UHGV virus genome: UHGV-0248791
Source: a virus
Reading direction: 5' to 3' (one strand)
DNA: 15,864 nucleotides
Below, piece by piece: positions 1 through 11,287 of this stretch (position 1 is its first letter; every line of letters starts with the position of its first letter). The translations under genes and the position numbers were made by a program. A model generated the notes under the pieces. That model was not told the origin of the DNA, made no database searches, and worked only from the letters and a program-made list of their open reading frames with translations.

Positions 1-6
1 AGATAA

Positions 7-83
7 TGGACCGCCATCGAGGACTCGAACCCCGCGCAACCAGCTTCGAAGGCTGGCGCTCTATCCTGATGAGCTAATGGCGG
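7..83 (-). tRNA. tRNA-Arg (anticodon UCG), phage-borne
   Basis: Reverse complement of 7..83 folds as a 77-nt cloverleaf: acceptor CCGCCAT/ATGGCGG, D-arm GCTC-ATCAGGATA-GAGC, anticodon arm CCAGC-CTTCGAA-GCTGG (anticodon UCG), T-arm CGGGG-TTCGAGT-CCTCG, discriminator T, encoded CCA. Confidence 0.75.
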
Positions 84-90
84 TATGTGA

Positions 91-162
91 TGGTGGCCCT
101 TGCTGGATTTGAACCAGCGACCTGGCGATTATGAGTCGCTCTCACCACTGAGCTAAAGGGCC
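91..162 (-). tRNA. tRNA with CAU anticodon (Ile2/Met type, ileZ-like), with a shortened D-arm
   Basis: Reverse complement of 91..162: acceptor GGCCCTT/AAGGGCC, T-arm GCTGG-TTCAAAT-CCAGC, anticodon loop CTCATAA (CAU), discriminator A, encoded CCA. Only 72 nt because the D-arm is short (3-bp stem, 6-nt loop) and 27:43 is an A-C mismatch, so it may be a degenerate copy. Confidence 0.6.
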
Positions 163-768: not shown

Positions 769-987
769 TAACAGCCGTTAATATAAATTGGCTAATAGAT
801 TTATTTTTATTCAGCCAAGAGCCATGAATAGGATTCGATAGAAAAAAGTTCAGATAAAAATAGAGATCTACTTCACAAATCAAACGAGAAACCAAAACTT
901 ACATCTTGAAATAATCACATTGATTAGATGAATATTTATCGCGCAGTGACATCATTTTTTAATAATAGTTCAAAAAAAGGGCTCACG

Positions 988-2070
988 ATGAAAAAATTAA
1001 CAGTGGCAATTTCTGCTGTAGCTGCATCAGTACTGATGGCGATGTCTGCTCAGGCAGCTGAAATTTATAATAAAGACAGTAACAAGCTGGATCTGTACGG
1101 GAAAGTTAATGCTAAGCACTATTTCTCCTCTAATGATGCAGATGATGGTGATACTACTTATGCCCGTCTTGGCTTCAAAGGTGAAACCCAAATCAACGAT
1201 CAACTGACTGGTTTCGGTCAGTGGGAATATGAATTCAAAGGCAACCGCGCTGAATCTCAAGGTTCCTCCAAAGATAAAACCCGTCTTGCCTTCGCTGGCC
1301 TGAAATTCGGTGACTACGGCTCAATCGATTACGGCCGTAACTACGGTGTAGCATACGACATCGGTGCGTGGACTGACGTTCTGCCAGAATTCGGTGGCGA
1401 TACCTGGACCCAAACAGATGTGTTCATGACTGGTCGCACCACTGGTGTTGCAACTTATCGTAACAACGACTTCTTTGGTCTGGTTGATGGTCTGAACTTT
1501 GCTGCTCAGTATCAGGGTAAAAATGACCGCACTGACGTAACTGAAGCTAATGGTGATGGTTTCGGTTTCTCCACTACTTATGAGTATGAAGGATTCGGTG
1601 TAGGTGCAACCTATGCTAAATCTGACCGCACTAATAATCAGGTTATCTACGGTAACAACAGCCTGAATGCATCTGGTCAAAATGCTGAAGTATGGGCAGC
1701 TGGTCTGAAATATGATGCGAACAACATCTATCTGGCTACCACCTATTCTGAAACCCAGAACATGACTGTTTTTGGTAATAACCATATTGCCAACAAAGCA
1801 CAAAACTTCGAAGTAGTTGCACAATATCAGTTCGACTTCGGTCTGCGTCCGTCCGTTGCTTACCTGCAATCTAAAGGAAAAGACTTGGGTGCGTGGGGTG
1901 ATCAGGACCTGGTTGAATATATTGATGTAGGTGCAACCTATTACTTCAACAAAAATATGTCCACTTTTGTTGATTACAAAATCAACCTGATTGATAAGAG
2001 CGATTTCACGAAAGCATCTGGCGTTGCTACCGATGATATCGTTGCTGTAGGTATGGTTTACCAGTTCTAA
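988..2070 (+). CDS. nmpC: General porin of the OmpC/OmpF/PhoE family (NmpC-type prophage porin), intact
   Basis: Start at ATG 988 ([23 protein letters not shown] signal peptide, then mature N-terminus AEIYNKD typical of enterobacterial porins) with AAAGGG Shine-Dalgarno upstream. Aromatic C-terminal ...VGMVYQF. The ORF-track start at 928 adds 20 codons ahead of the signal peptide and is unlikely. Confidence 0.9.
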
Positions 2071-2659: not shown

Positions 2660-3655
2660 TCAGGACAGCACACCAATCGCCAGCGCGCGATCGATAAAAC
2701 GAAATATCAGCTCCAGTTGGGAACCATACTTCTCTTCAAATGCCACGGTATCCGCATGTAGTTCGTCATGGTGTTTTCTGCACAAAGGCAACACAAAAAG
2801 GTCATGCGCTTTTGTACCCATTCCACCCTGACCATGACCAATCAGGTGATGAGGATCGTCGGCTGGCTTACCACAACATGCACACGGCTGCGTCTTAACC
2901 CAGCGCGTGTACTTTTCATTAACCCAGCGACGACGTTTGGGGCGTAACATAAAAGACTCCGGCGACTCCGGATCCACTTTCAGCGCCAGCACCTTTTTCG
3001 CCTTATCCCGGATGATGCTGGTGGCAGGAACCGAAGGCACAAGGTCACCTTCCCGGGTGACAGACGGCACAACAGGCTTCGGTAATCTCAGTGCCTTACG
3101 GGCTGCACTTTCCGGTAAGGCATCCGCCAGGTCATTACGAACCAGCCACCAGCACAGTTCCGGCATTGTCACAACGTGGCTGTCATCAAAACCGAGATCA
3201 CGACGGACTACGGACAACACCCAGCGGGCACAGTTATCCGTTGCCATTGATTCCAGACGTTCCGTGAACTGATCGCGAAGCAGGTTATCGCAGTGCCAGC
3301 ACAGACGGATTGCGCCCGGCGCGTGTCGCATTGTGGTCATGTTCTCGCTGTGCCATCCGGAATGAGGCCACTGGCAGCCTTTTTCACGAAGTAACCAGCT
3401 CTCAAGGCATTCCACGCCACCAGCACGACGGATCACCGCCTCATGGCGGAACACGGCCCGAACGGCAGGATCATCCGCCAGCGGTTGTGATGCTGCCGGA
3501 ACGGCACCACTGGCAAAAGATGAATAACGTTCCGGCTCAGGCTCCAGCAGGACACGCCCCTGCATAAACAGGGGCATCAGCTCTGAACCGGGTCTGAACA
3601 AGACGATCCCCATACGCGGGGCAATTTCAGGGGTCAGCAGTGCTCTCACGGTCAC
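2660..3655 (-). CDS. DUF968/NinG-like nin-region protein with C-terminal Cys/His (HNH-like, zinc-binding) motif
   Basis: C-terminal QPCACCGKP...[19 protein letters not shown]...[12 protein letters not shown]. The start is uncertain: GTG at 3655 or GTG at 3649, the latter with a GAGG Shine-Dalgarno 5 nt upstream. Confidence 0.6.
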
Positions 3656-3959: not shown

Positions 3960-5356
3960 AATAAACGCTCCGTTTTACTGCCCGACATGCGGTTATTGCT
4001 GTATCTGCGCGGATTGCCCGGCGTCATGGGTGTGGAAAGAACCCGGGCACTCTCCTGGTCCACAGGCAGAAAATGTCCGTTATGAAAACGCCGGTAAATG
4101 GTCCCGAGTGTGCCATTACGCTGTTTCGTGATGTTGATTTCTGCTATGCCTCTGGCCTGTGTATCCGGGTTATACACCTCATCCCTGTAAAGCATCAGAA
4201 TGATGTCGGCATCAGCCTCTATTTCCCCGGAGTTTTTCAGGTCTGAGTTCATGGGACGTTTATTGGGTCTGGATTCCACGCCTCGGGAGAGCTGGCTCAG
4301 AGCAATCAGCGGGAAACCGCCGGATTTTGCCAGGCTTTTAAGTCCCTTTGAGATTTCCCCCACAGCAAGGTCGTGACGCCCCGTGCTGCGGGTTTTAATC
4401 AGACCGAGGTAATCGACCACCACCAGCGCCGTTTCCGGGTGTTTCATCCGGTGGTGCTTCGTGGTTGCACATATCTCATCAATGGTCAGGTTTGCCTGAT
4501 CCACCATCCAGATATTACGCCCCGTCATTCGTCCCACGCCCTGCGAGAAACGCGCCCAGTCTTCATCTTCAAAACGGGCAACAGACTTAAGACGGGATAC
4601 CGGCATTCCACCGGCAGCAGACACCATACGTTCACCAATCTGGATGTTCGCCATCTCCATGGTGAACAGAAGCACGCCATGCCCCTGCTCAGTCACCTTG
4701 TCGATGATGTCCAGCGCAAGTTCGGTTTTCCCCATCGAAGGACGGGCGGCAATGAATACCAGGTCACCGGGCTCCATACCGCCCGTTTTTGCGTCCAGTT
4801 CATCAATACCGGTCATCAGCGCCCTGGATTTCTCCAGTCCCTGATTGCGGCATTCAACACGGTCGACCACTTCCGGAAGGACATCATCAATGTGAACCGG
4901 CTGAATGACGCCCTTTCCGGTCGACAGTGAGGCCATCATGTTCTGCACATCCTTCAGGGCATCCTCGGCTGCTTCACAGGTATACGCATCACGTAAATTC
5001 TGTAATGCTTCAGTCAGTGTTTTTTCTGCATCGCGCAGTGCGGCATTGCGCCGCAACGCTGCGACATAGTGCTCCAGTGAAGACTTCACCCAGGTTTTGC
5101 GTCCGGTGTCGGTAATCACCGGGGCAAGTTCCGGCATCTCATTGCACAGCAGTACGGGGTCAATGACGCCGGATATGCGAGCCTGTCTGCAAATCCCCGC
5201 GTAAATATCCCGGTACTGACGCACAAAAAATACATCCGCCGGAAGTGTGGCCAGAATATCCATCACTTCCGGATCGGCCCCACGCAGAAAAAACGCACCG
5301 ATGACAGCGCCTTCCAGGTCATCGTTACGCCATGCCGGGGTGTTCTGGCTGGTCAT
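3956..5356 (-). CDS. Replicative DNA helicase, DnaB family (phage-encoded)
   Basis: 466 aa with Walker A GxxxxGKT (IAARPSMGKTELALD) and DnaB C-terminal motifs (SQLSRGVESRPNKRPMNSDLKNSGEIEADADIILMLYRDEVY). ATG 5356 with GGAGG Shine-Dalgarno; ATGA overlap with the upstream gene. Confidence 0.9.
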   Translation of the reverse strand: MTSQNTPAWRNDDLEGAVIGAFFLRGADPEVMDILATLPADVFFVRQYRDIYAGICRQARISGVIDPVLLCNEMPELAPVITDTGRKTWVKSSLEHYVAALRRNAALRDAEKTLTEALQNLRDAYTCEAAEDALKDVQNMMASLSTGKGVIQPVHIDDVLPEVVDRVECRNQGLEKSRALMTGIDELDAKTGGMEPGDLVFIAARPSMGKTELALDIIDKVTEQGHGVLLFTMEMANIQIGERMVSAAGGMPVSRLKSVARFEDEDWARFSQGVGRMTGRNIWMVDQANLTIDEICATTKHHRMKHPETALVVVDYLGLIKTRSTGRHDLAVGEISKGLKSLAKSGGFPLIALSQLSRGVESRPNKRPMNSDLKNSGEIEADADIILMLYRDEVYNPDTQARGIAEINITKQRNGTLGTIYRRFHNGHFLPVDQESARVLSTPMTPGNPRRYSNNRMSGSKTERLF

Positions 5357-6262: not shown

Positions 6263-7255
6263 TCAGAATGTCAATTTGTTACTGGATTTACCGAATTTGT
6301 CAGACATGGCTCCCAGGCCAGCCAGGACATCGACCTGTCGCTGTCGCCCACCTCCGTGAGCGGCTGGCTGTTGCCAGTAATCTTCGAAGTGACGATCGGG
6401 TCCAAAGAACGTCGCAGCCTGCTTCACGAACTGTGTGCCGGTATTTCCTGTAGCACGTACCCAGGCGGCATACCGCTTCACGCCATCAAGCATGGTCTCC
6501 GGTTTTATTCCCTCCCTGATACGGGCTTTCCAGGCTTTGAAGGCTGCTGACTTGGAATTGCCACCAGCACGTTTGGGATATTCCTGCCAGGCCTGTTCAA
6601 ATTCCGGTGAATATTCCTGTCGGGCAGAACGCGCTGGCGCAGACGCGTCAGCGGATGCATCAATAGTGTTTTTAGTCTCCGTTGTAATCTCTGTAGTAAT
6701 CTCTGTATTTGTATCAACATTCGGCGTATCCCCTGTTCCGTTATGACGTCGGGGGGTGTTCCGTTTTAACGTAATAGCTGTATCGCTGATTGCATTATTG
6801 CTGTTACTTTCTGGCGAAACAGAAGAAGGTGTGGTGATGGCCGCAATTGCCTGTGGGTTGATCCCGACAAACAAAATATTGCTGCATTTCACCCCATCGA
6901 GCATTTCCACCGTGCGTAAATCCAGAGTAATAAACCCTGCATCGCGCAGACGCTTCAGCGCATCTGCGGTTTCCCTTTTCCCGAAACCAAACTGCTCAGC
7001 AAACGCCTGGTAGCTTCTTTGCAGTTTGTCGCCCTGAAAACGCTTGCGATATCCCAGCAACGCTCCGGTGTGCTCATCCCTGACCTCTGTCGGGCGGTAC
7101 CAGTAAACGATCTCTGAAAGCAGAGCGATAGCCGTCGCATCCGGACGCCCACTGGGTAGTCGAATATATTTCCACCAGTTCGCAGGTGTAACATTGCCGG
7201 AAATATTAATTTGACCAATAGCCATAACTTCCGGTGTGGGGGCGTAACGGCTCAT
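6263..7255 (-). CDS. Replication initiator / replisome organiser (lambda O-like role)
   Basis: 330 aa, directly upstream of the DnaC- and DnaB-like genes with ATGA overlap to the preceding ORF. Low-complexity central linker (TEITTEITTE, DASADASA) between N- and C-terminal domains; AAGGAGG Shine-Dalgarno before ATG 7255. Confidence 0.65.
   Translation of the reverse strand: MSRYAPTPEVMAIGQINISGNVTPANWWKYIRLPSGRPDATAIALLSEIVYWYRPTEVRDEHTGALLGYRKRFQGDKLQRSYQAFAEQFGFGKRETADALKRLRDAGFITLDLRTVEMLDGVKCSNILFVGINPQAIAAITTPSSVSPESNSNNAISDTAITLKRNTPRRHNGTGDTPNVDTNTEITTEITTETKNTIDASADASAPARSARQEYSPEFEQAWQEYPKRAGGNSKSAAFKAWKARIREGIKPETMLDGVKRYAAWVRATGNTGTQFVKQAATFFGPDRHFEDYWQQPAAHGGGRQRQVDVLAGLGAMSDKFGKSSNKLTF
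6675..6707. repeat. Iteron-like 12-bp direct repeats within the O-like gene (candidate replication origin)
   Basis: GTAATCTCTGTA at 6684-6695 and 6696-6707, preceded by the degenerate copy TCTCCGTTGTA (6676-6686). Lambda ori iterons also lie inside the O gene linker. Confidence 0.4.
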
Positions 7256-7551
7256 ACAACCTCCTTCCGCGGCATGAGAATTGTGTAGCCACGCGCAGGT
7301 TGTAGTCTGGCTTTTGCATCAATAGTAAGCGTTGCAATTTTTCGGATATGAAGATAACCAGCTCTTTCCAGTGCCAGGGTTTCCCTGAATATCGCTTGCT
7401 TAGAACAACAGCAGAAATCAGCAAGCACCTGATGATCAATAACTCTCTCGCCTTCACCGTCTGAAGAACCCGACATCAAAACACGCAACATAATCAGGCG
7501 CTGAATCGGGTTATCGAAAGCACATCCGCACACAAACTGAAAACAGTTCAC
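7252..7551 (-). CDS. Hypothetical protein (99 aa), possible helix-turn-helix DNA-binding protein
   Basis: GTG start overlapping the upstream stop (GTGA) with GGAGG 6 nt upstream; ATGA overlap with the O-like start. Possible HTH segment SKQAIFRETLALERAGYL. Confidence 0.5.
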   Translation of the reverse strand: MNCFQFVCGCAFDNPIQRLIMLRVLMSGSSDGEGERVIDHQVLADFCCCSKQAIFRETLALERAGYLHIRKIATLTIDAKARLQPARGYTILMPRKEVV

Positions 7552-7772
7552 GCCACACCTCCCAGACGCTTAAACATTTTTCCAGACAGAAATACCGCCA
7601 GAGGGTAACTGATGGTGTAGCTACGCCCCTGTAGTTCGCACACGACTTTCTGGCTTTCAGCGTTGACTAGGCAAACCCGCAGAACGTGACCGTTGCTGGT
7701 GGCGAACCACTGCCCCACACGGGGGCAACGGTTGTATCGGTGATACAGGGAATTAACGATGTGGCGGATCAT
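7548..7772 (-). CDS. Hypothetical protein (74 aa)
   Basis: ATG 7772 with GGAGG Shine-Dalgarno 7 nt upstream; ATGA overlap with the upstream ORF. Confidence 0.5.
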   Translation of the reverse strand: MIRHIVNSLYHRYNRCPRVGQWFATSNGHVLRVCLVNAESQKVVCELQGRSYTISYPLAVFLSGKMFKRLGGVA

Positions 7773-7963
7773 GGACGCACCTCCGCCGTAGTTACGTATT
7801 TAACCGGGCTACCTTTCATTGAGATGGTTTCACACATCTCTGCCGCTTTCAGTTCCGCTGTTTTTCTGGATTTATAGCGACGGTGCCAGACAGATACATC
7901 CGTGCGAACTGATACATCGTTTCTGTATTCCGTAGTGGAGATGATGATTTCGTAACTAATCAT
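7769..7963 (-). CDS. Hypothetical protein (64 aa)
   Basis: ATG 7963 with GGAGG Shine-Dalgarno 7 nt upstream; ATGA overlap with the stop of the Rha-family gene. Confidence 0.5.
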   Translation of the reverse strand: MISYEIIISTTEYRNDVSVRTDVSVWHRRYKSRKTAELKAAEMCETISMKGSPVKYVTTAEVRP

Positions 7964-8820
7964 GGGCGAACCTCCTTGTCAGAACCATTCAGCCTGGAAT
8001 CAACAAGTGCAGCGCCAAAAACAGCATCACCAACACGGTCGTACAGTTTGCTAGCCAGCGGAGATTCAACGGCCTTAAGCATTGGATAAAGCTGGCTTGT
8101 CCAGATTTGATGGATTTCACGCAAATGCAGGTATACGCCTCTGGCGTTTCGTGCGACAGCTGACATATCAGACGCATCGGCACCTGATAAACTCTTCTCC
8201 ATCAGGTTAAAGGCGTTGATGTATGCCTCTTTGAACCGGGCAGCACGTTTACCAGTGAAGCCCATGGCAAGAAACGCAAAACCGTCGCGGGTGATTTGGT
8301 AACAAGGGAGCTTGCGTGTACCACCGTTCGGTTGATTTACCGAAATCGATGTCTCCGCAAAATTGCGGGCACAAAACTCAGGGGAACAATCCAGAGTGCG
8401 GATCTTTTTCAGCACATCGTCATGACGCTTGGAGAAGAAGTTGGCAACAGCCAAAGAAGTGGTAACGGCCTGGCCGTTGTCAATGGTGATTTCAGGTTGA
8501 GTGAGGGCTGGGATCGTAGCCATGATGGCAGCCTCCGTTGACAGTGAAAAACTTCCACCACCGGAAACGCCAATTTCACTGGTGGTGAACTGGACGGGGT
8601 TGGCGTAACCGGCGTCAACGGAGACCGGCGCACCTTTCGGTGCCCCCGCCCAGCCCACCATAATCTGGATGTGAGCAAATGCGGACGATAAAAAAGACGC
8701 TGGCGCGTCATACATCGCCGTTGACAATTTCAGGACGCCAATCCCGGCACCCGCTTTATAAGGTGCGGAGACAGTGTAACGTCCCGGAATTGCAGAATCA
8801 ATATGCTGGTGGCGGATCAT
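7960..8820 (-). CDS. Rha-family phage regulatory protein (paralog A); alternative internal start at 8523 would give a 187-aa product
   Basis: Rha-like motifs AVTTSLAVANFFSKRHDDVLKKIRTL...ITRDGFAFLAMGFTGKRAARFKEAYINAFNLME. Two nested starts: ATG 8820 (GGGAGG Shine-Dalgarno, ATGA coupling to the upstream gene) and ATG 8523 (GGAGG Shine-Dalgarno), the latter sitting right at the start of the Rha domain. Confidence 0.6.
   Translation of the reverse strand: MIRHQHIDSAIPGRYTVSAPYKAGAGIGVLKLSTAMYDAPASFLSSAFAHIQIMVGWAGAPKGAPVSVDAGYANPVQFTTSEIGVSGGGSFSLSTEAAIMATIPALTQPEITIDNGQAVTTSLAVANFFSKRHDDVLKKIRTLDCSPEFCARNFAETSISVNQPNGGTRKLPCYQITRDGFAFLAMGFTGKRAARFKEAYINAFNLMEKSLSGADASDMSAVARNARGVYLHLREIHQIWTSQLYPMLKAVESPLASKLYDRVGDAVFGAALVDSRLNGSDKEVRP
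8524..8820 (-). promoter_or_regulatory. Conserved structured leader, copy A (candidate cis-regulatory RNA; may also be translated as an N-terminal extension)
   Basis: Transcript sense: site 1 GTCAACGG (8725..8718), terminator-like GACGC-GCCA-GCGTC plus U6 (8709..8690), hairpin GCACC-GAAA-GGTGC (8643..8630), site 2 CUCCGUUGAC (8623..8614), pseudoknot-type helices ACGCCAA/TTGGCGT interleaved with CACCACC/GGTGGTG (8606..8556), site 3 GUCAACGGAG overlapping the Shine-Dalgarno (8542..8533). Confidence 0.4.
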
Positions 8821-9479
8821 AGGTGCACCTCCCGTTGATTACGACGGAACGCGGAGTGACCCTGGACGGTTTCAGCCTCATGGAATGCTTCAATACAGCT
8901 CTCGTAGTACCGCATTGTGCGCAGACTTAACCCAAGCTGAAGCATCATCAGACCATCAAGGGTGATGTAATAACCACGCAGGGAGTCACCGTAGATGTGA
9001 TAAGTACCCGGTATGAAATTGCGGGTAAAAAACCCGCGTGAGCAGTTCAGATACTCGATTTTGTCAACGATGTTCTGGTGCATGCGCTTGAAATGGCAGG
9101 CAACATGCAGGGAGAAAATAACGGCCTTGCCGTTGACGACTTCGATTTTTAGGAATGGGGAAGTTAGGACAGTAGCCATGATGGCAGCCTCCGTATGCAA
9201 TGGATAACTTCCACCACCGGAGCTGCGAAACTCATGGGTGGTGAACTGAACAGGGTTCGCAGTACCGGCGCATACGGAAACCGGCGAGCCTTTCGGCTCC
9301 CCTGCCCAGCCCACCATAATTCTGGCGTGCGTGAGCGCGGACGATAAAAAAGACGCTGGCGCGTCATATATCGCCGTATGCAATTCCGGGCTGCGACCCC
9401 CGGCACCCGCTTTATAAGGTGCGGAGACAGTGTAACGTCCCGAAATTGCAGAATCAATATTTGGTCTTGAAATGATCAT
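8817..9479 (-). CDS. Rha-family phage regulatory protein (diverged paralog B); alternative internal start at 9179 would give a 120-aa product
   Basis: Degenerate Rha-like region AVIFSLHVACHFKRMHQNIVDKI...ITLDGLMML. ATG 9479 lacks a clear Shine-Dalgarno, whereas internal ATG 9179 has GGAGG 8 nt upstream within a 20-nt block identical to copy A. Confidence 0.5.
   Translation of the reverse strand: MIISRPNIDSAISGRYTVSAPYKAGAGGRSPELHTAIYDAPASFLSSALTHARIMVGWAGEPKGSPVSVCAGTANPVQFTTHEFRSSGGGSYPLHTEAAIMATVLTSPFLKIEVVNGKAVIFSLHVACHFKRMHQNIVDKIEYLNCSRGFFTRNFIPGTYHIYGDSLRGYYITLDGLMMLQLGLSLRTMRYYESCIEAFHEAETVQGHSAFRRNQREVHL
9180..9479 (-). promoter_or_regulatory. Conserved structured leader, copy B (same architecture as copy A with compensatory changes)
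   Basis: Site 1 GCATACGG (9381..9374), identical GACGC-GCCA-GCGTC plus U6, hairpin GAGCC-GAAA-GGCTC (9299..9286), site 2 UUCCGUAUGC (9279..9270), helices CTGCGAA/TTCGCAG interleaved with CACCACC/GGTGGTG, site 3 GCAUACGGAG overlapping the Shine-Dalgarno (9198..9189). Confidence 0.4.
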
Positions 9480-9563
9480 ATAGCTGCTGATATCTTTAGA
9501 ACTGTTCTTGGATGTTTCGGAGCCGTTTTATGCGAAACAGCTCCCCGTTATTGATGTTGAGTG

Positions 9564-9588
9564 AGCCGGGTTACTCCCGGCTTTTTTT
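9564..9588 (+). terminator. Strong rho-independent terminator on the plus strand, antisense to the early-right operon
   Basis: AGCCGGG-TTACT-CCCGGCT 7-bp GC-rich stem (9564-9582) followed by a T-run to 9588. On the minus strand the hairpin is not followed by U, so it is unidirectional for plus-strand transcripts. Confidence 0.55.
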
Positions 9589-10295
9589 CACCGCTGCCAA
9601 CCAATAACCTGAAATAACCCCATTTTCGGGTGATACCAGCGAGTCCCTCGCGGTTCTGCTTCCTCCATAATCCGATAAAAAGCAGCCATAAACGGTTCCA
9701 CAGCAACAATTGCGCGACGTGACAACAATCCGTCCGGCGTCATGAACTCATGGGTGTCTGTAGGAATCTGATAGGCGTTCACCAGATTGCGGCATTTATC
9801 ATCTGACAAACCGGTTTTTGCTTTCAGTTGGCGATATCCGGCATAGCCCTCACGAATAGTGCCCTTTTTAATTTGCTCGACTGTTTCAGCAACGTGGCTG
9901 ACTTTTTCTTCCACCTGAGTGATCCGTTTCTGTTGGCGAACGGCTTCAAGAGCCATCGCGGCAACCATTTCGATTTCGCTCATTGGCTTACGGATCTGTT
10001 CTTCCAGTTCGCGCCAGCGATCTACCAGGCGAGCTGTGAATTCAGGACAGAGCTGTGCGACGACAATGATGCTGTCGCGCTTACCTCGTTCACCTTCGAA
10101 TACATACGCGCTAGAAAATCGGCGAGGCCCAAGTGATTGTTTATTCTCAATTTCCACAGTCTGTGGAAATTGGATGATTCCCTTTTTAGCCAGTGTTTCA
10201 ATAGTTCTCTTAACACTATCTGGTCGGCTTCCCACCAGCTCTGCGATCTCAACGCTGGTCATGGATGCTTTGCCGTTAAAAATTGCGGTGTTCAT
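9588..10295 (-). CDS. Rha/antirepressor-family phage regulatory protein (235 aa)
   Basis: N-terminal MTSVEIAELVGSRPDSVKRTIETLAKKGII...GERGKRDSIIVVAQLCPEFTARLVDRW resembles Rha-family regulators. ATG 10295 has an AGGAGA Shine-Dalgarno 6 nt upstream. Confidence 0.7.
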   Translation of the reverse strand: MNTAIFNGKASMTSVEIAELVGSRPDSVKRTIETLAKKGIIQFPQTVEIENKQSLGPRRFSSAYVFEGERGKRDSIIVVAQLCPEFTARLVDRWRELEEQIRKPMSEIEMVAAMALEAVRQQKRITQVEEKVSHVAETVEQIKKGTIREGYAGYRQLKAKTGLSDDKCRNLVNAYQIPTDTHEFMTPDGLLSRRAIVAVEPFMAAFYRIMEEAEPRGTRWYHPKMGLFQVIGWQR

Positions 10296-10519
10296 TGTTG
10301 GTCTCCTGTGGGCTTGTCATCTTCTGTATTCGCTAGACTTGGGTGTGTATATGGAATGCTCGGATCCAGATGACAAAGAATGGCAACATCCTCCGGAACA
10401 CCTCGCGTTTTCCACTTTCCAACACCTTGACTGCCACGAGGCCTTCCTTTCTTTGGGAACCTGCGACCAATAGCGGCATTGGTTTTAAATTGAATTTTTA
10501 ATATTTCATAAAGGGTCAT
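10292..10519 (-). CDS. Questionable small ORF (75 aa) in the Cro position; no HTH recognisable, may instead be an untranslated leader
   Basis: ATG 10519 is only 17 nt from the operator cluster and has a weak Shine-Dalgarno. The product is basic and low-complexity (GRRFPKKGRPRGSQG). The stop overlaps the downstream ATG (ATGA). Confidence 0.3.
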   Translation of the reverse strand: MTLYEILKIQFKTNAAIGRRFPKKGRPRGSQGVGKWKTRGVPEDVAILCHLDPSIPYTHPSLANTEDDKPTGDQQ

Positions 10520-10536: not shown

Positions 10537-10608
10537 GATACTTTGTTATCCAACGATGTTAACCATAGGAACCCAAAGTATCAAGAAATTCTGTTACTTT
10601 AGTATCAA
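10537..10608. promoter_or_regulatory. OR-type operator cluster with divergent PRM/PR promoters between cI and the early-right operon
   Basis: Three copies of an AAGTATC core: GATACTTTG (10537-10545, inverted), AAAGTATCAA (10575-10584), TTAGTATCAA (10599-10608). On the minus strand the motif reads TTGATAC, which overlaps a -35-like hexamer (TTGATA, 17 nt, TAACAT). Confidence 0.5.
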
Positions 10609-10630
10609 CAGCCATGAGAGGAGAAGAAAA

Positions 10631-11287
10631 ATGAAGTCTTTAGGTGAACGTCTCATCAACGCACGGCAAAAAGCTGGGTTAACACAAGATGCGTTGGCTA
10701 AAAAAGCTGGGGTCACCAGAGTTGCAATAAGTAAAGCCGAGCAAGGCCTTACAAAAAGTTTCAACGGTGACACCCTTTTTAAAGTTGCAGCTGCACTGCG
10801 GTGTTCACCGCAGTGGCTTCAGAACGGAGATGAAAAAGATAAGCATTGGGAAAATAATGTTAAGAGCTGCCCACAGAGAGACACAGCACACTCTTACCCT
10901 GTAATTAACTGGGTTCAGGCAGGATTATTCGCAACTTCTGGTGATGACTACAACATGTATGATCAGGATAATTGGAGGCATTCTGTAAAATACGCTGGTG
11001 AGAGGGGGTTCTGGCTGGAAGTGCACGGAGACTCAATGACTTCGCCCGTAGGAATAACATTTCCTGAAGGAATGTCGATCCTTGTCAACCCAGATAAAGA
11101 AGTTTTTTCAGGGTGTTACGTCATCGCCAGAAAAAAATCCACCAATGAAGCAACATTCAAAAAATATATTTCTGACATGGGAAAGGCGTTTCTAAAGCCC
11201 CTTAATCCACAATATCCAATCATAGAAATGGACAATGATTGCGAAATAGTAGGTGTTGTGGTTGATGCCAGATGGGATATTTTCTGA
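10631..11287 (+). CDS. CI-type prophage repressor (N-terminal HTH, C-terminal LexA-like S24 peptidase domain)
   Basis: HTH LTQDALAKKAGVTRVAISKAEQG; S24 motifs GDSMTSP (Ser) and a downstream Lys; candidate Ala-Gly cleavage site in WVQAGLF. Start ATG 10631 with AGAGGAGAAG Shine-Dalgarno; the track's longer ORF lacks one. Confidence 0.85.
   Translation: MKSLGERLINARQKAGLTQDALAKKAGVTRVAISKAEQGLTKSFNGDTLFKVAAALRCSPQWLQNGDEKDKHWENNVKSCPQRDTAHSYPVINWVQAGLFATSGDDYNMYDQDNWRHSVKYAGERGFWLEVHGDSMTSPVGITFPEGMSILVNPDKEVFSGCYVIARKKSTNEATFKKYISDMGKAFLKPLNPQYPIIEMDNDCEIVGVVVDARWDIF

What the first reader, a model, noticed from the sequence alone, without database searches (positions are those of the whole stretch)
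8524..9479. Duplicated ~300-nt leader in front of two tandem Rha-family genes, with compensatory base-pair covariation: candidate structured regulatory RNA
Each tandem Rha-family gene is preceded by a ~300-nt element (A: 8524-8820, B: 9180-9479) of identical architecture, about 80% identical at nucleotide level, and more conserved than the Rha domains themselves. The differences fall as matched double changes in paired segments. (1) An 8-nt motif occurs direct, inverted, direct: GUCAACGG / CCGUUGAC / GUCAACGG in A, and GCAUACGG / CCGUAUGC / GCAUACGG in B, with three substitutions each mirrored in the complement. (2) A GAAA-tetraloop hairpin is GCACC-GAAA-GGUGC in A and GAGCC-GAAA-GGCUC in B. 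(3) A helix ACGCCAA/UUGGCGU in A is CUGCGAA/UUCGCAG in B, and it interleaves with an invariant CACCACC/GGUGGUG helix, which is pseudoknot topology. Site 2 can pair with site 1 (8 bp) or with site 3 (10 bp); site 3 covers GGAG of the Shine-Dalgarno of the internal ATG that begins the Rha domain. Mutually exclusive pairings around a Shine-Dalgarno are the hallmark of a translational switch. A conserved GACGC-GCCA-GCGUC plus U6 attenuator-like hairpin follows site 1 in both copies. Against a purely non-coding reading: the element stays in frame with the Rha ORF in both copies, the indels are multiples of 3, and copy A has its own strong Shine-Dalgarno plus ATG at 8820. So it may be a translated N-terminal extension carrying embedded RNA structure. 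I do not recognise it as a known RNA family.
Basis: seen in the sequence. Interest (0 to 1): 0.85.

Follow-up and report, generated by a model that had tools for sequence, protein, structure and literature searches.

The report
Two phage C4/IsrK antisense-RNA cassettes
The duplicated 300-nt "leader" is two copies of an already known phage immunity cassette, in which a small decoy RNA (IsrK) and a processed antisense RNA (C4) mask the ribosome-binding site of an antirepressor-type gene; the two copies have different pairing specificities and, unusually, sit inside a reading frame that is kept free of stop codons.

Summary
On the minus strand, each ~300-nt element is an isrK/c4-a1b1-type RNA (Rfam RF01394, 62 and 59 bits) followed by a C4 antisense RNA (RF01695, 81 and 83 bits).

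Its ACGCCAA/UUGGCGU "helix" is a'/a2, and an a1 copy lies upstream. Its GAAA hairpin is C4 stem P2. Its "attenuator" is the IsrK terminator. b2 overlaps the GGAGG that precedes the internal ATG of each Rha gene.

Across 22 diverse homologous leaders these pairings are 95-98% maintained, with compensatory changes at most positions. I found about 38 b' loop variants. Tandem arrays of two or three modules recur, and their b' loops always differ within an array.

The same cassette controls unrelated antirepressor types in P1, P4, Gifsy-1 and phiV10.

One thing is possibly new. In the Rha-linked clade the frame through the cassette is depleted of stop codons (0.7% against about 4.4% in the other frames). 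Yet it shows no amino-acid constraint and is predicted to be unfolded. The Pfam "Ash domain" therefore looks like a translated RNA cassette.

Interest is low to moderate.

The parts
8796..8801 (-). Module A promoter, -35-like TTGATT
   Evidence: Sequence. Identical in A and B. Aligns with the annotated P1c4 -35 of P1 and with TTGACA upstream of Gifsy-1 isrK. The simple promoter scan did not flag it because it matches only 8 of 12.
8773..8778 (-). Module A promoter, -10-like TACACT, 17-nt spacer, ends 6 nt before the RNA start
   Evidence: Sequence. The Rfam isrK model starts at 8766.
8690..8766 (-). Module A IsrK / c4-a1b1-type RNA: hairpin 1 (8747-8766), hairpin 2 with a1 in its loop (8731-8746), single-stranded b1, intrinsic terminator
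   Evidence: Rfam isrK 62.2 bits against gathering score 50. c4-a1b1 scores 23.9 bits, below threshold, at 8727-8779.
8735..8741 (-). a1 site of module A (UUGGCGU)
   Evidence: Complementary to a'. a1:a' is 98% paired with compensatory changes at 6 of 7 pairs across 22 leaders.
   Evidence: b1:b' is 98% paired with compensatory changes at 7 of 8 pairs.
8690..8709 (-). IsrK-type intrinsic terminator of module A: GACGC-GCCA-GCGUC plus U6
   Evidence: Terminator scan. 3' hairpin of the Rfam isrK model.
8578..8665 (-). Module A C4 antisense RNA. The mature RNA is predicted to span about 8581-8659 by analogy with P1.
   Evidence: Rfam C4 81.4 bits against gathering score 45, all model pairs canonical. 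P1, P2 and P3 are 100% paired across 22 leaders.
8630..8643 (-). C4 stem P2 with GAAA tetraloop, module A
   Evidence: Compensatory changes at 4 of 5 pairs. Weinberg 2010 notes that GNRA/UNCG loops are typical of P2.
8600..8606 (-). a' of module A (ACGCCAA) in the single-stranded junction
8567..8573 (-). a2 target site of module A (UUGGCGU)
   Evidence: a':a2 shows compensatory changes at 5 of 7 pairs. Same position as the annotated a2 of P1.
8554..8562 (-). GGUGGUGGA, alternative partner of the 3' strand of C4 stem P1 (8581-8589). The resulting hairpin presents a2 in its loop.
   Evidence: 97.5% paired, compensatory changes at 3 of 9 pairs. It also covaries in P1, L171, L173, L117 and L192.
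   Evidence: b':b2 is 94% paired with compensatory changes at 7 of 8 pairs. In every homologue b2 overlaps the Shine-Dalgarno 8-10 nt before the ATG.
7960..8523 (-). Rha-family gene A, short form (187 aa) from the ATG behind b2 and the Shine-Dalgarno
   Evidence: Pfam Phage_pRha 3.9e-27. The start is inferred from b2/SD conservation.
7960..8820 (-). Long ORF A (286 aa, annotated 'Rha family phage regulatory protein') that reads through promoter, IsrK, C4 and the targets. Its ATG overlaps the stop of gene B (ATGA).
   Evidence: Stop depletion in this frame. Residues 1-107 have pLDDT 23-29.
9452..9457 (-). Module B promoter, -35-like TTGATT (-10 TACACT at 9429-9434)
   Evidence: Identical to module A.
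9346..9422 (-). Module B IsrK / c4-a1b1-type RNA, with a1 UCGCAG (9391-9396), b1 GCAUACGG (9374-9381) and terminator (9346-9365)
   Evidence: Rfam isrK 58.8 bits..
9234..9321 (-). Module B C4 antisense RNA: P2 GAGCC-GAAA-GGCUC (9286-9299), b' CCGUAUGC (9270-9277), a' CUGCGAA (9256-9262)
   Evidence: Rfam C4 83.3 bits..
9189..9229 (-). Module B target region: a2 UUCGCAG (9223-9229), GGUGGUGGA (9210-9218), b2 GCAUACGGAG (9189-9198) overlapping the Shine-Dalgarno GGAGG (9188-9192)
8817..9179 (-). Rha-like gene B, short form (120 aa). The long ORF 8817-9479 (220 aa) is annotated 'ash family protein' in RefSeq.

Best explanation
Each ~300-nt element is a self-contained phage 'immI-type' RNA control cassette placed in front of a Rha-family (antirepressor-type) gene. 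Step 1 below is shown here; steps 2-7 are inferred from relatives.

1. Shown by sequence. A sigma-70-like promoter (TTGATT-N17-TACACT) starts a transcript at about 8766 in module A and about 9422 in module B.
2. The first 77 nt form an IsrK / c4-a1b1-type RNA. It displays a1 in a hairpin loop and b1 in a single strand, and it ends at an intrinsic terminator. Termination there would release a short sRNA.
3. Read-through transcribes a C4 antisense RNA. By analogy with P1, it is cut out by RNase P just after the AU of the conserved AUGG.
4. C4 carries a' and b'. These pair with a2 and b2 immediately downstream. b2 covers the Shine-Dalgarno of the rha gene, so translation initiation at 8523 / 9179 is blocked. 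The block can act in cis on the unprocessed transcript or in trans by processed C4.
5. In P1 and P4, loss of translation leads to Rho-dependent termination. Here that would also reduce expression of the downstream replication genes.
6. The short IsrK-type RNA carries the same a1/b1 sequences. It can titrate C4 or remodel the leader and so turn the gene on, as proposed for P1 and shown for Gifsy-1.
7. Modules A and B differ at both contacts, with changes mirrored at all three sites. They should therefore be mutually orthogonal, like the heteroimmune pair P1/P7.

A second layer applies in this Rha-linked clade. The whole cassette lies in a reading frame kept free of stops and chained to the neighbouring genes by ATGA overlaps. 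The most likely reason is that ribosomes arriving on early-operon transcripts translate straight through it. That would suppress the internal terminator and Rho polarity and yield an N-terminally extended Rha. The peptide itself seems not to matter.
For: **Family identity.**
- Rfam C4 scores 81.4 and 83.3 bits against a gathering score of 45. isrK scores 62.2 and 58.8 bits against 50.
- The same pair of hits occurs in Gifsy-1, P4, phiV10, TL-2011a, and Hafnia and Klebsiella phages. P1 has C4 plus c4-a1b1.

**Layout.**
- The P1 GenBank record annotates promoter, a1, b1, C4 RNA, a2 and b2 ('repression of icd ant translation') in the same order and spacing.

**Covariation, on 22 diverse leaders.**
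- Internal C4 and IsrK helices plus a':a2 and b':b2: 95.0% of cells paired, against 34-45% when partners are slid. 26 pairs carry compensatory changes.
- a1:a', b1:b' and the alternative helix: 97.9% paired, against 34-53% when slid.
- G-U replacements occur, which argues for RNA rather than DNA pairing.

**Control of the start codon.**
- b2 overlaps the Shine-Dalgarno 8-10 nt before the ATG in every lineage, whatever gene follows: Rha, ORF6N, Bro-N, or icd/Ant.
- The minimum-free-energy fold of read-through leader A pairs a'b' with a2b2 and buries the Shine-Dalgarno, z = -4.4.

**Experiments in relatives.**
- In Gifsy-1, IsrK given in trans raises anrP translation about 100-fold. Compensatory mutants confirm pairing between IsrK and the downstream region. 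A processed RNA, STnc1160, arises downstream of IsrK (PMC4825925).

**Orthogonality.**
- A and B differ at 3 of 8 positions in b and at about 3 of 7 in a, mirrored in all three sites.
- All 19 tandem arrays I found in other loci carry different b' loops.

**Open reading frame.**
- Frame 0 has stops in 7 of 1065 distinct codon variants, against 48/1060 and 46/1060 in the other frames.
- 93 of 101 unique leaders have no stop in frame 0.
- The C4 AUG is in frame with the Rha ATG in 32 of 32 clusters.
- 4-nt gene overlaps occur at 8817-8820, 7960-7963, 7769-7772, 7548-7551, 7252-7255 and 5353-5356.

**No protein-level signal.**
- Variant counts by codon position are 346/322/387 and the synonymous fraction is 0.28, against 0.22 and 0.24 in the other frames.
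- A and B differ at 23/16/23 positions by codon position.
- AlphaFold2 gives pLDDT 23-29 for residues 1-107 and 70-83 for the Rha domain, from the same alignment.
Against: - Nothing was measured in this prophage. Promoter activity, termination at the IsrK terminator, RNase P processing, and the cis or trans action of C4 are all inferred from relatives.
- The simple promoter scan did not flag the proposed promoter, which matches 8 of 12 positions.
- c4-a1b1 (RF03163) scores only 23.9 and 18.5 bits here, against a gathering score of 46.7.
- Unlike P1 (icd) and Gifsy-1 (orf45), there is no separate coupled leader ORF. Details of coupling and Rho termination may therefore differ.
- No evidence here shows that these Rha proteins are antirepressors.
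- The ribosome-transit explanation for the open frame is my own inference. A functional long protein isoform is not excluded.
- The codon variants I counted are not phylogenetically independent.
Confidence: 0.85

Rival explanations
1. The element is simply protein-coding: a genuine N-terminal 'Ash domain' of Rha-family regulators. Its nucleotide conservation and repeats would be by-products of a recent duplication and of the protein sequence.
For: - Pfam Phage_ASH matches both ORFs (2.3e-20 and 5.2e-17).
- RefSeq annotates an 'ash family protein'.
- 5418 database proteins match the long ORF, and nearly all listed ones carry Ash plus Rha.
- The frame is open and depleted of stops.
- Indels are multiples of 3 or are compensated.
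- The ATG at 8820 has a GGGAGGTG Shine-Dalgarno and an ATGA overlap with gene B.
Against: - There is no third-position bias: 23/16/23 between A and B, and 346/322/387 across 101 leaders.
- The synonymous fraction, 0.28, is close to that of the non-coding frames, 0.22 and 0.24.
- The changes are compensatory at the RNA level and non-synonymous at the protein level: S to H twice and D to C at the three b sites.
- Residues 1-107 are predicted unfolded, with pLDDT 23-29.
- The same RNA cassette has stops in all three frames in P1, TL-2011a, phiV10 and a Klebsiella phage. In Gifsy-1 the only stop-free frame is out of phase with anrP.
- In P4, Pfam Ash matches the obsolete conceptual 'cI protein' ORF that overlaps the CI RNA. 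The real P4 epsilon protein belongs to a different family, PF25738.
- In P0044 the second leader is read in a different frame and is still open.
Confidence: 0.07
2. A purely cis-acting translational switch or attenuator. One leader RNA toggles between site 2:site 1 and site 2:site 3 pairings, with an attenuator hairpin, and no separately processed trans-acting RNA is involved.
For: - The minimum-free-energy fold of the read-through leader pairs a'b' with a2b2 in cis and sequesters the Shine-Dalgarno.
- The Gifsy-1 study describes two alternative conformers of the long transcript.
- The 3' strand of C4 P1 has two mutually exclusive partners, both supported by covariation.
- Weinberg 2010 notes that C4 may sometimes act in cis.
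Against: - The C4 part scores as a complete C4 RNA with the closed 17-bp P1 stem characteristic of the excised RNA.
- In P1 the C4 RNA is annotated as a discrete 77-nt RNA.
- In Gifsy-1 a stable processed species, STnc1160, is seen downstream of IsrK, and IsrK acts in trans.
- About 38 specificity classes and heterospecific arrays are what selection against cross-talk between diffusible RNAs would produce. For a purely cis element there would be no pressure to diversify.
Confidence: 0.06
3. The direct/inverted/direct octamers are DNA sites, either operators for a DNA-binding protein such as Rha itself or recombination sites, rather than RNA pairing partners.
For: - Repeated 7-8-mers in both orientations next to genes for DNA-binding proteins resemble operator layouts (sequence only).
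- Rha family proteins carry a winged-helix DNA-binding domain (PMC8951638).
Against: - Pairing is kept through G-U wobble changes, which preserve RNA helices but not DNA sequence identity. Examples are Hafnia b1 against b2 and several pairs.
- The sites sit in the loop, junction and Shine-Dalgarno positions predicted by the RNA model.
- The motifs vary freely among about 38 classes. The downstream proteins do not covary with them, and the same cassette precedes four unrelated protein families.
Confidence: 0.02

Closest known systems
Phage P1/P7 immI operon (c4 antisense RNA - icd - ant1/ant2), Rfam RF01695 and RF03163
   Same: Same order: promoter, a1, b1, hairpin plus U-run, C4 RNA (P1 closing stem, P2 tetraloop hairpin, P3 with b' in the loop, a' in the junction), a2, b2 overlapping the ribosome-binding site of the first gene. 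Specificity is set by a/b sequences that covary in triplicate, as between the heteroimmune phages P1 and P7 (own knowledge: Citron & Schuster 1990).
   Different: - The controlled gene is a Rha-family gene reached directly. There is no separate icd-like leader ORF.
- The cassette lies in a lambdoid early operon upstream of the replication genes, not in a plasmid-prophage immI operon.
- Two heterospecific copies stand in tandem.
- The whole cassette is inside an open reading frame, whereas the P1 leader has stops in all frames.
Salmonella Gifsy-1 isrK-orf45-anrP locus (IsrK, Rfam RF01394; STnc1160)
   Same: An IsrK-type 5' RNA with its own promoter and leaky terminator, followed by a C4-type RNA and an antirepressor-like gene whose Shine-Dalgarno is covered by b2. 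The short RNA activates translation of the read-through mRNA in trans (PMC4825925). The a sites are identical (UUGGCGU/ACGCCAA).
   Different: - AnrP is an ORF6N protein, not a Rha protein.
- In Gifsy-1, orf45 starts at the AUG at the C4 5' end, is out of frame with anrP, and ends in an ATGA overlap that gives translational coupling. Here the same AUG is in frame with rha, 138 nt upstream, and no stop intervenes.
- The Gifsy-1 locus has a single copy.
Satellite phage P4 immunity (CI RNA with seqA / seqB / seqC)
   Same: Rfam C4 and isrK both match the P4 immunity region. There is a processed antisense RNA with target copies upstream and downstream, and it controls genes upstream of the replication gene. 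A conceptual ORF runs through the RNA and is the source of the Pfam 'Ash' match.
   Different: P4 uses the RNA as its only immunity factor and acts through premature transcription termination (own knowledge: Ghisotti, Deho, Forti and co-workers; summarised in PMC4825925). This prophage also has a LexA/CI-type repressor.
Pfam PF10554 Phage_ASH / NCBI 'ash family protein'
   Same: The N-terminal ~100 residues of both long ORFs match the profile end to end.
   Different: The evidence here indicates that this 'domain' is the conceptual or incidental translation of the isrK-C4 cassette. There is no amino-acid-level constraint, it is predicted unfolded, and in P4 it coincides with the CI RNA.

Membership tests
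C4 antisense RNA (Rfam RF01695) | Covariance-model score at or above the curated gathering score (45 bits) | tested here: met
   81.4 bits (8578-8665) and 83.3 bits (9234-9321), full-length 1-87/87.
C4 antisense RNA (Rfam RF01695) | Three-stem fold: long closing stem P1, P2 capped by a stable tetraloop, P3 with b' in its loop, and a' in the P3-P1 junction | tested here: met
   All model pairs are canonical in both copies. P1, P2 and P3 are 100% paired across 22 leaders, with compensatory changes at 4, 4 and 1 pairs. Both copies have a GAAA loop.
P1/P7 immI-type control system | a' and b' complementary to a2 and b2 downstream, with b2 over the ribosome-binding site of the first gene | tested here: met
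   7 bp (a) plus 10 bp (b) in module A. b2 runs into GGAGG, 8 nt before the ATG. The same holds in all homologues.
P1/P7 immI-type control system | Second copy of the targets (a1, b1) upstream of C4 | tested here: met
   a1 at 8735-8741 / 9391-9396 and b1 at 8718-8725 / 9374-9381. 98% paired, with compensatory changes at 6 of 7 and 7 of 8 pairs.
P1/P7 immI-type control system | C4 released from the primary transcript by RNase P as a ~77-nt RNA that acts in trans | not testable with these tools
   Only the conserved AU|GG context and the ...CACCACC 3' end can be seen in the sequence.
P1/P7 immI-type control system | Separate small leader ORF (icd in P1, orf45 in Gifsy-1) translationally coupled to the antirepressor gene | tested here: not met
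   No stop lies between the C4 AUG (8661) and the rha ATG (8523). The two are in frame, 138 nt apart, in 32 of 32 clusters.
P1/P7 immI-type control system | The controlled gene encodes an antirepressor | tested here: inconclusive
   Pfam Phage_pRha. PHROG hits include 'anti-repressor' and 'Rha-like transcriptional regulator' families. No functional data exist.
isrK (Rfam RF01394) | Covariance-model score at or above the gathering score (50 bits); two 5' hairpins plus a Rho-independent terminator | tested here: met
   62.2 and 58.8 bits, full length 1-77/77. The terminator was also found independently.
isrK (Rfam RF01394) | Own promoter, partial read-through into the downstream gene, trans-activation by the short form, Hfq binding | not testable with these tools
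   A promoter-like TTGATT-N17-TACACT is present and conserved. Its activity was not measured.
c4-a1b1 (Rfam RF03163) | Covariance-model score at or above the gathering score (46.7 bits) | tested here: not met
   23.9 and 18.5 bits at the expected places, 8727-8779 and 9383-9435. P1, TL-2011a and Gifsy-1 do pass the threshold. The region is covered here by the overlapping isrK model.
Pfam Phage_ASH (PF10554) as a protein domain | Profile match above the cut-off | tested here: met
   73.5 and 62.7 bits against a cut-off of 26.
Pfam Phage_ASH (PF10554) as a protein domain | Behaves as a protein: purifying selection on amino acids and a foldable domain | tested here: not met
   No codon-position bias. 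pLDDT is 23-29 with no secondary structure. The only protein-like property is depletion of stop codons.

The most novel reading that the evidence does not exclude
In the Rha-linked prophage clade, the isrK-C4 cassette is a true dual-use sequence.

- Its nucleotides are shaped by RNA pairing, yet selection also keeps it as an uninterrupted reading frame joined to the neighbouring early genes.
- Ribosomes on early-operon (lytic) transcripts would read through the promoter, terminator, antisense RNA and targets. That would override the RNA lock and protect the downstream replication genes from termination and Rho polarity.
- In the lysogen, the cassette's own promoter would make only the RNAs that keep rha shut.
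- On this reading the widely annotated Pfam/NCBI 'Ash domain' (thousands of proteins) is a non-folding by-product of an RNA element.
- Arrays of two or three orthogonal cassettes would form a combinatorial 'RNA immunity barcode' among co-resident prophages.
Probability: 0.35. Interest if true: 0.55.

Novelty: new member of a known kind. Interest (0 to 1): 0.3.

Why it matters
As a discovery of a new RNA it does not matter. The cassette is the classic P1/P7 C4, P4 CI and Gifsy-1 IsrK system and is already in Rfam. Three by-products are useful.

1. **Annotation.** The 'ash family protein' and 'Ash domain' labels, and the long starts of these 'Rha family' genes, hide a regulatory RNA cassette. 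This affects about a quarter of complete E. coli genomes (1425 of 5426 have a match) and many Stx-phage regulatory regions, where the Ash domain is reported as having no known function (PMC8951638).

2. **Prophage induction.** These cassettes sit between the repressor/cro region and the replication genes of Stx-type and other lambdoid prophages. RNA-based, specificity-coded control of antirepressor-type genes is therefore relevant to induction and to cross-talk between co-resident prophages. I found about 38 b' classes, and arrays are always heterospecific.

3. **An unusual constraint.** An ORF that is kept open without any amino-acid constraint, laid over a structured RNA, is an unusual evolutionary signature. 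If it is confirmed, it would be a clean example of translation being selected for ribosome transit rather than for the protein product.

Tried and rejected
- **Whole-molecule duplex energies.** RNAduplex between C4 and the target or IsrK was uninformative. It unfolds everything and gives -40 to -53 kcal/mol for cognate and non-cognate pairs alike. I judged orthogonality by direct inspection of the a and b contacts instead.
- **Promoter scan.** The consensus scan did not list the proposed promoter, which matches 8 of 12 and falls below its 9 of 12 rule. The promoter assignment rests on alignment with the annotated P1c4 promoter and the Gifsy-1 isrK start.
- **Stop avoidance within the b sites alone.** By a rough estimate, about 20% of random b classes would carry an in-frame stop in b1/b2 or b'. 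I saw 2 such classes (L152, L173) among roughly 25. That is not significant, so the argument rests on the whole-leader statistics.
- **P4 epsilon as 'Ash'.** One paper uses PF10554 as the profile for P4 epsilon. A Pfam scan shows that epsilon is PF25738 and that PF10554 matches the conceptual cI ORF over the CI RNA. I rejected the idea that Ash is the P4 antirepressor.
- **DNA-level reading.** I considered operators or recombination sites and rejected them because of the G-U substitutions.
- **Retron or DGR readings.** I thought of these briefly and dropped them. There is no reverse transcriptase nearby, and the differences between the copies are not adenine-specific.
- **Primary literature.** Citron & Schuster 1992 and Heinrich 1994 could not be read because they are not held. 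Statements about RNase P processing and Rho-dependent polarity are from my own knowledge.
- **Gifsy-1 AnrP versus Rha-A.** They show no detectable similarity, so the cassette, not the gene, is the conserved unit.

Full report
**1. What is in the sequence**

The genes in 7960-10519 lie on the minus strand. Two ORFs are relevant:
- 8817-9479, 220 aa.
- 7960-8820, 286 aa.

Each consists of about 100 N-terminal codons followed by a Rha-type domain. The two N-terminal stretches (A: 8524-8820; B: 9180-9479) differ at 62 of 297 aligned positions, which is 79% identity. The Rha parts share only 36% amino-acid identity.

The two octamers occur four times each in the window against 0.39 expected, and 0 of 200 shuffles reach that count.

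**2. What it is**

A scan of the window against Rfam at the curated thresholds gives four relevant hits, all on the minus strand.

| Module | isrK (RF01394) | C4 antisense RNA (RF01695) |
|---|---|---|
| A | 8766..8690, 62.2 bits | 8665..8578, 81.4 bits |
| B | 9422..9346, 58.8 bits | 9321..9234, 83.3 bits |

All hits are full length, and all C4 model pairs are canonical. The related model c4-a1b1 (RF03163) lies at the expected position but below threshold, at 23.9 and 18.5 bits.

The richly annotated P1 record shows the same architecture. In order it lists promoters P2c4/P1c4, 'putative a1 target site', 'b1 target site', the C4 RNA, 'target site a2 ... repression of icd ant translation', 'target site b2', and then icd and ant1/ant2.

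|---|---|
| Sites 1 / 2 / 3 | b1 / b' / b2 |
| ACGCCAA / UUGGCGU | a' / a2 |
| (not noticed) | a1 at 8735-8741 and 9391-9396 |
| GAAA hairpin | C4 stem P2 |
| GACGC-GCCA-GCGUC-U6 | IsrK terminator |

On P2, Weinberg et al. note that it is usually capped by GNRA or UNCG loops.

The sequence upstream of the RNA start is identical in A and B. It is a promoter-like TTGATT-N17-TACACT that ends 6 nt before the isrK model start. It aligns with the annotated P1c4 promoter and with TTGACA-N17-TATATT in front of Gifsy-1 isrK.

**3. Relatives**

The isrK + C4 pair is found in Gifsy-1, P4, phiV10, Stx-phage TL-2011a, a Hafnia phage and a Klebsiella phage. P1 has c4-a1b1 + C4. The genes behind the cassette are unrelated to one another.

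| Phage | Gene behind the cassette |
|---|---|
| Gifsy-1 (AnrP), TL-2011a | ORF6N |
| phiV10 | Bro-N |
| P1 | icd, then KilAC Ant |
| This window | Rha |

In every case the a and b motifs differ, but all three copies change together. In every case b2 also overlaps the Shine-Dalgarno 8-10 nt before the ATG. The cassette is therefore a portable regulator, and the real start of the regulated gene is the ATG behind b2: 8523 and 9179 here.

The element is common:
- 1425 of 5426 complete E. coli genomes have a match to 7900-9600, and 75 have the whole tandem pair.
- 337 phage records match element A, often with nothing annotated there.

**4. Covariation**

I aligned 22 leaders taken from different 90%-identity clusters and counted pairs for structures I specified.

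*First structure: internal IsrK and C4 helices plus a':a2 and b':b2.*
- 95.0% of cells are paired, against 34-45% when partners are slid by 1-3 columns.
- 26 pairs have changes on both sides. 0 of 500 shuffles reach the observed values on four of the five measures.
- Pairs with compensatory change: b':b2 7 of 8, a':a2 5 of 7, P2 4 of 5, P1 4 of 17. P1 is 100% paired.

*Second structure: a1:a', b1:b' and the helix between the 3' strand of P1 and GGUGGUGGA.*
- 97.9% of cells are paired, against 34-53% when slid.
- Pairs with compensatory change: 6 of 7, 7 of 8 and 3 of 9.

Examples are CUAUCGCC/GGCGAUAG, GCUGUCAC/GUGACAGC and CUGCCACC/GGUGGCAG. It presents a2 in a hairpin loop and competes with the C4 closing stem.

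G-U substitutions in several helices argue for RNA rather than DNA pairing.

The minimum-free-energy fold of read-through leader A keeps the IsrK hairpins and terminator. It pairs a'b' with a2b2 in cis and buries the Shine-Dalgarno, with z = -4.4.

**5. How it most likely works**

*Shown here, by sequence and comparison:* the parts, their order, their complementarity, and the position of b2 on the Shine-Dalgarno.

*Taken from experiments on relatives:*
- In P1/P7 the c4 RNA represses synthesis of Ant (P1 record). It does so by pairing with a2/b2 and blocking translation of the first ORF, with Rho-dependent polarity downstream. It is excised by RNase P. These last points are my own knowledge of Citron & Schuster 1990/1992 and Biere et al. 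1992.
- The a1/b1 copy was proposed to compete for C4.
- In Gifsy-1 part of the isrK transcripts read through the terminator into an inactive mRNA. Short IsrK in trans activates anrP translation more than 100-fold. Compensatory mutations confirm pairing between the IsrK middle region and the downstream region. A processed RNA, STnc1160, is made from the read-through transcript.

*Inferred for this window:*
- Each module makes an IsrK-type decoy/activator and a C4-type repressor from one promoter.
- C4 masks the rha ribosome-binding site in cis or in trans.
- The balance between the two RNAs sets Rha expression.
- Because the modules lie upstream of three small ORFs and the replication genes (a 330-aa ORF, a DnaC/IstB-like ATPase, a DnaB-type helicase), polarity could extend to replication, as in P4.

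**6. Two copies, two specificities**

| Site | Module A | Module B |
|---|---|---|
| a | UUGGCGU | U(U)CGCAG |
| b | GUCAACGG | GCAUACGG |

Cross-pairing would leave three adjacent mismatches in b and three mismatches in a. The modules should therefore be orthogonal.

This is not peculiar to the window. A profile search of all the loci I fetched found the following:
- 234 C4 copies in 211 sources.
- 21 sources with two or three copies.
- 19 tandem arrays at spacings of about 390-870 nt, usually about 650 nt.
- Different b' loops within every array.
- About 38 different b' loops and at least 15 a' variants overall.

**7. The reading frame**

I collected 101 unique leaders (32 clusters at 90% identity) using only the junction GAGGCTGCYATYATGGCTAC, which does not bias for ORFs.

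*Signs that the frame is kept open:*
- 93 of 101 leaders have no stop in the 300 nt upstream in the frame of the Rha ATG. The other two frames carry on average 4.7 and 2.6 stops.
- Among distinct column/triplet variants, stops are 7 of 1065 in frame 0, against 48 of 1060 and 46 of 1060 in the other frames.
- The depletion holds both upstream and downstream of the C4 AUG.
- The C4 AUG is 135, 138 or 141 nt from the Rha ATG in 32 of 32 clusters.
- Insertions in the spacer keep the frame, and the Hafnia leader has a -1 and a -2 deletion that compensate each other.
- In a 496-aa fused form seen on 279 contigs, the second leader is read partly in another frame and is still open.

*Signs that the protein itself is not selected:*
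- Variants are spread 346/322/387 over codon positions.
- The synonymous fraction is 0.28, against 0.22 and 0.24 in the other frames.
- A and B differ at 23/16/23 positions by codon position, with 28 non-synonymous and 11 synonymous codon changes.
- With one 32-sequence alignment, AlphaFold2 gives pLDDT 23-29 and no secondary structure for residues 1-107, and pLDDT 70-83 for the Rha domain.

*Where the frame is not open:*
- Outside this clade the cassette has stops in all three frames in P1, TL-2011a, phiV10 and the Klebsiella phage. In Gifsy-1 the only stop-free frame is out of phase with anrP.
- The stand-alone intergenic copy L152 has in-frame stops.

*Context.* In the window the long ORFs are linked to their neighbours by 4-nt overlaps at 8817-8820, 7960-7963, 7769-7772, 7548-7551 and 7252-7255.

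*My reading, which is an inference.* When the cassette is embedded in the early operon, ribosomes coming from upstream must be able to cross it. An in-frame stop would expose about 300 nt of untranslated, terminator-containing RNA ahead of the replication genes. A functional long Rha isoform remains possible.

**8. The 'Ash domain'**

- Pfam PF10554 matches the N-terminal 100 residues here.
- In P4 it matches the old conceptual 'cI gene product (AA 1-137)' ORF at 8168-8584.
- That ORF overlaps the Rfam C4 hit at 8507..8420, which is the CI RNA.
- The true P4 derepression protein epsilon belongs to PF25738.
- A recent Stx-phage study lists Rha/Ash proteins next to cI and notes that no function is known for Ash.

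The simplest account is that 'Ash' is the translation of the isrK-C4 cassette.

**9. Verdict**

The RNA family and mechanism, however, are already known, so the element is a further member of the C4/IsrK immI-type systems.
- Three features are not described in anything I could find, and I present them as leads rather than discoveries: direct in-frame linkage to a Rha gene, recurrent heterospecific arrays, and stop-codon avoidance without protein constraint.

Noticed in passing
window 9467-9591, + strand: A candidate small RNA antisense to the early operon. It has a promoter-like TTGAAA-N18(TG)-TATCTT (9467-9496) and a strong + strand terminator GAGCCGGG-TTACT-CCCGGCTT plus T7 (9563-9590). The terminator overlaps the stop codon of the 235-aa gene (9588). 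The ~89-nt RNA folds into two hairpins with z = -3.2. In position and orientation it resembles lambda OOP RNA (antisense to the 3' end of cII). No Rfam family matched.
   Followed up: partly
window 9130-9137, - strand: A fourth copy of module A's b octamer GTCAACGG lies inside the coding region of Rha gene B, about 42 nt after its ATG. It could be chance, because it falls in the conserved NG(K/Q)AV motif. It could also be a cross-target for C4-A on the rha-B mRNA.
   Followed up: no
P4 genome, L212 8168-8584(-); Pfam PF10554: Pfam 'Ash protein family' matches the obsolete conceptual P4 'cI protein' ORF that overlaps the CI RNA, not the epsilon protein (PF25738). At least one published P4-satellite survey used PF10554 as the epsilon marker.
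   Followed up: yes
L107 (three modules at about 656-nt spacing), L192 (three at about 390 nt), L006, L100, L143, L131, L093 and others: Arrays of two or three C4 cassettes are recurrent in IMG/VR prophage contigs. Within an array the b' loops always differ.
   Followed up: partly
Protein P0044 (496 aa, seen on 279 contigs); P0001 (478 aa): In some genomes two cassette-plus-Rha units are fused into a single ORF (Ash-Rha-leader-Rha). In P0044 the second leader is translated partly in a different frame and is still stop-free.
   Followed up: partly
L088 / L089 / L091 positions 487-800, and most IMG/VR loci (for example L015): In the commonest context the cassette follows an upstream gene of ~105 aa (PHROG 1170, unknown function). 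That gene has no stop codon of its own and runs in frame into the cassette and the Rha gene, giving the ~383-386-aa 'antirepressor' or 'peptidase' annotations.
   Followed up: partly
window 1-162 and 928-2070: Two tRNA genes lie on the minus strand: tRNA-Arg(TCG) at 7-83 and tRNA-Met(CAT) at 91-162. A prophage-borne Gram-negative porin gene lies at 928-2070(+), and a DUF968/HNH-like gene at 2660-3655(-). These are typical lambdoid prophage cargo.
   Followed up: no
window 9588-10295(-), 10292-10519(-), 10556-11287(+): The immunity region holds a LexA/CI-type repressor (HTH_3 plus Peptidase_S24) that is divergent from a 75-aa cro-position ORF. That ORF is followed by a third Rha/Ant-like gene of 235 aa (PHROG 63 'anti-repressor Ant'), which has no C4 cassette in front of it.
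   Followed up: no
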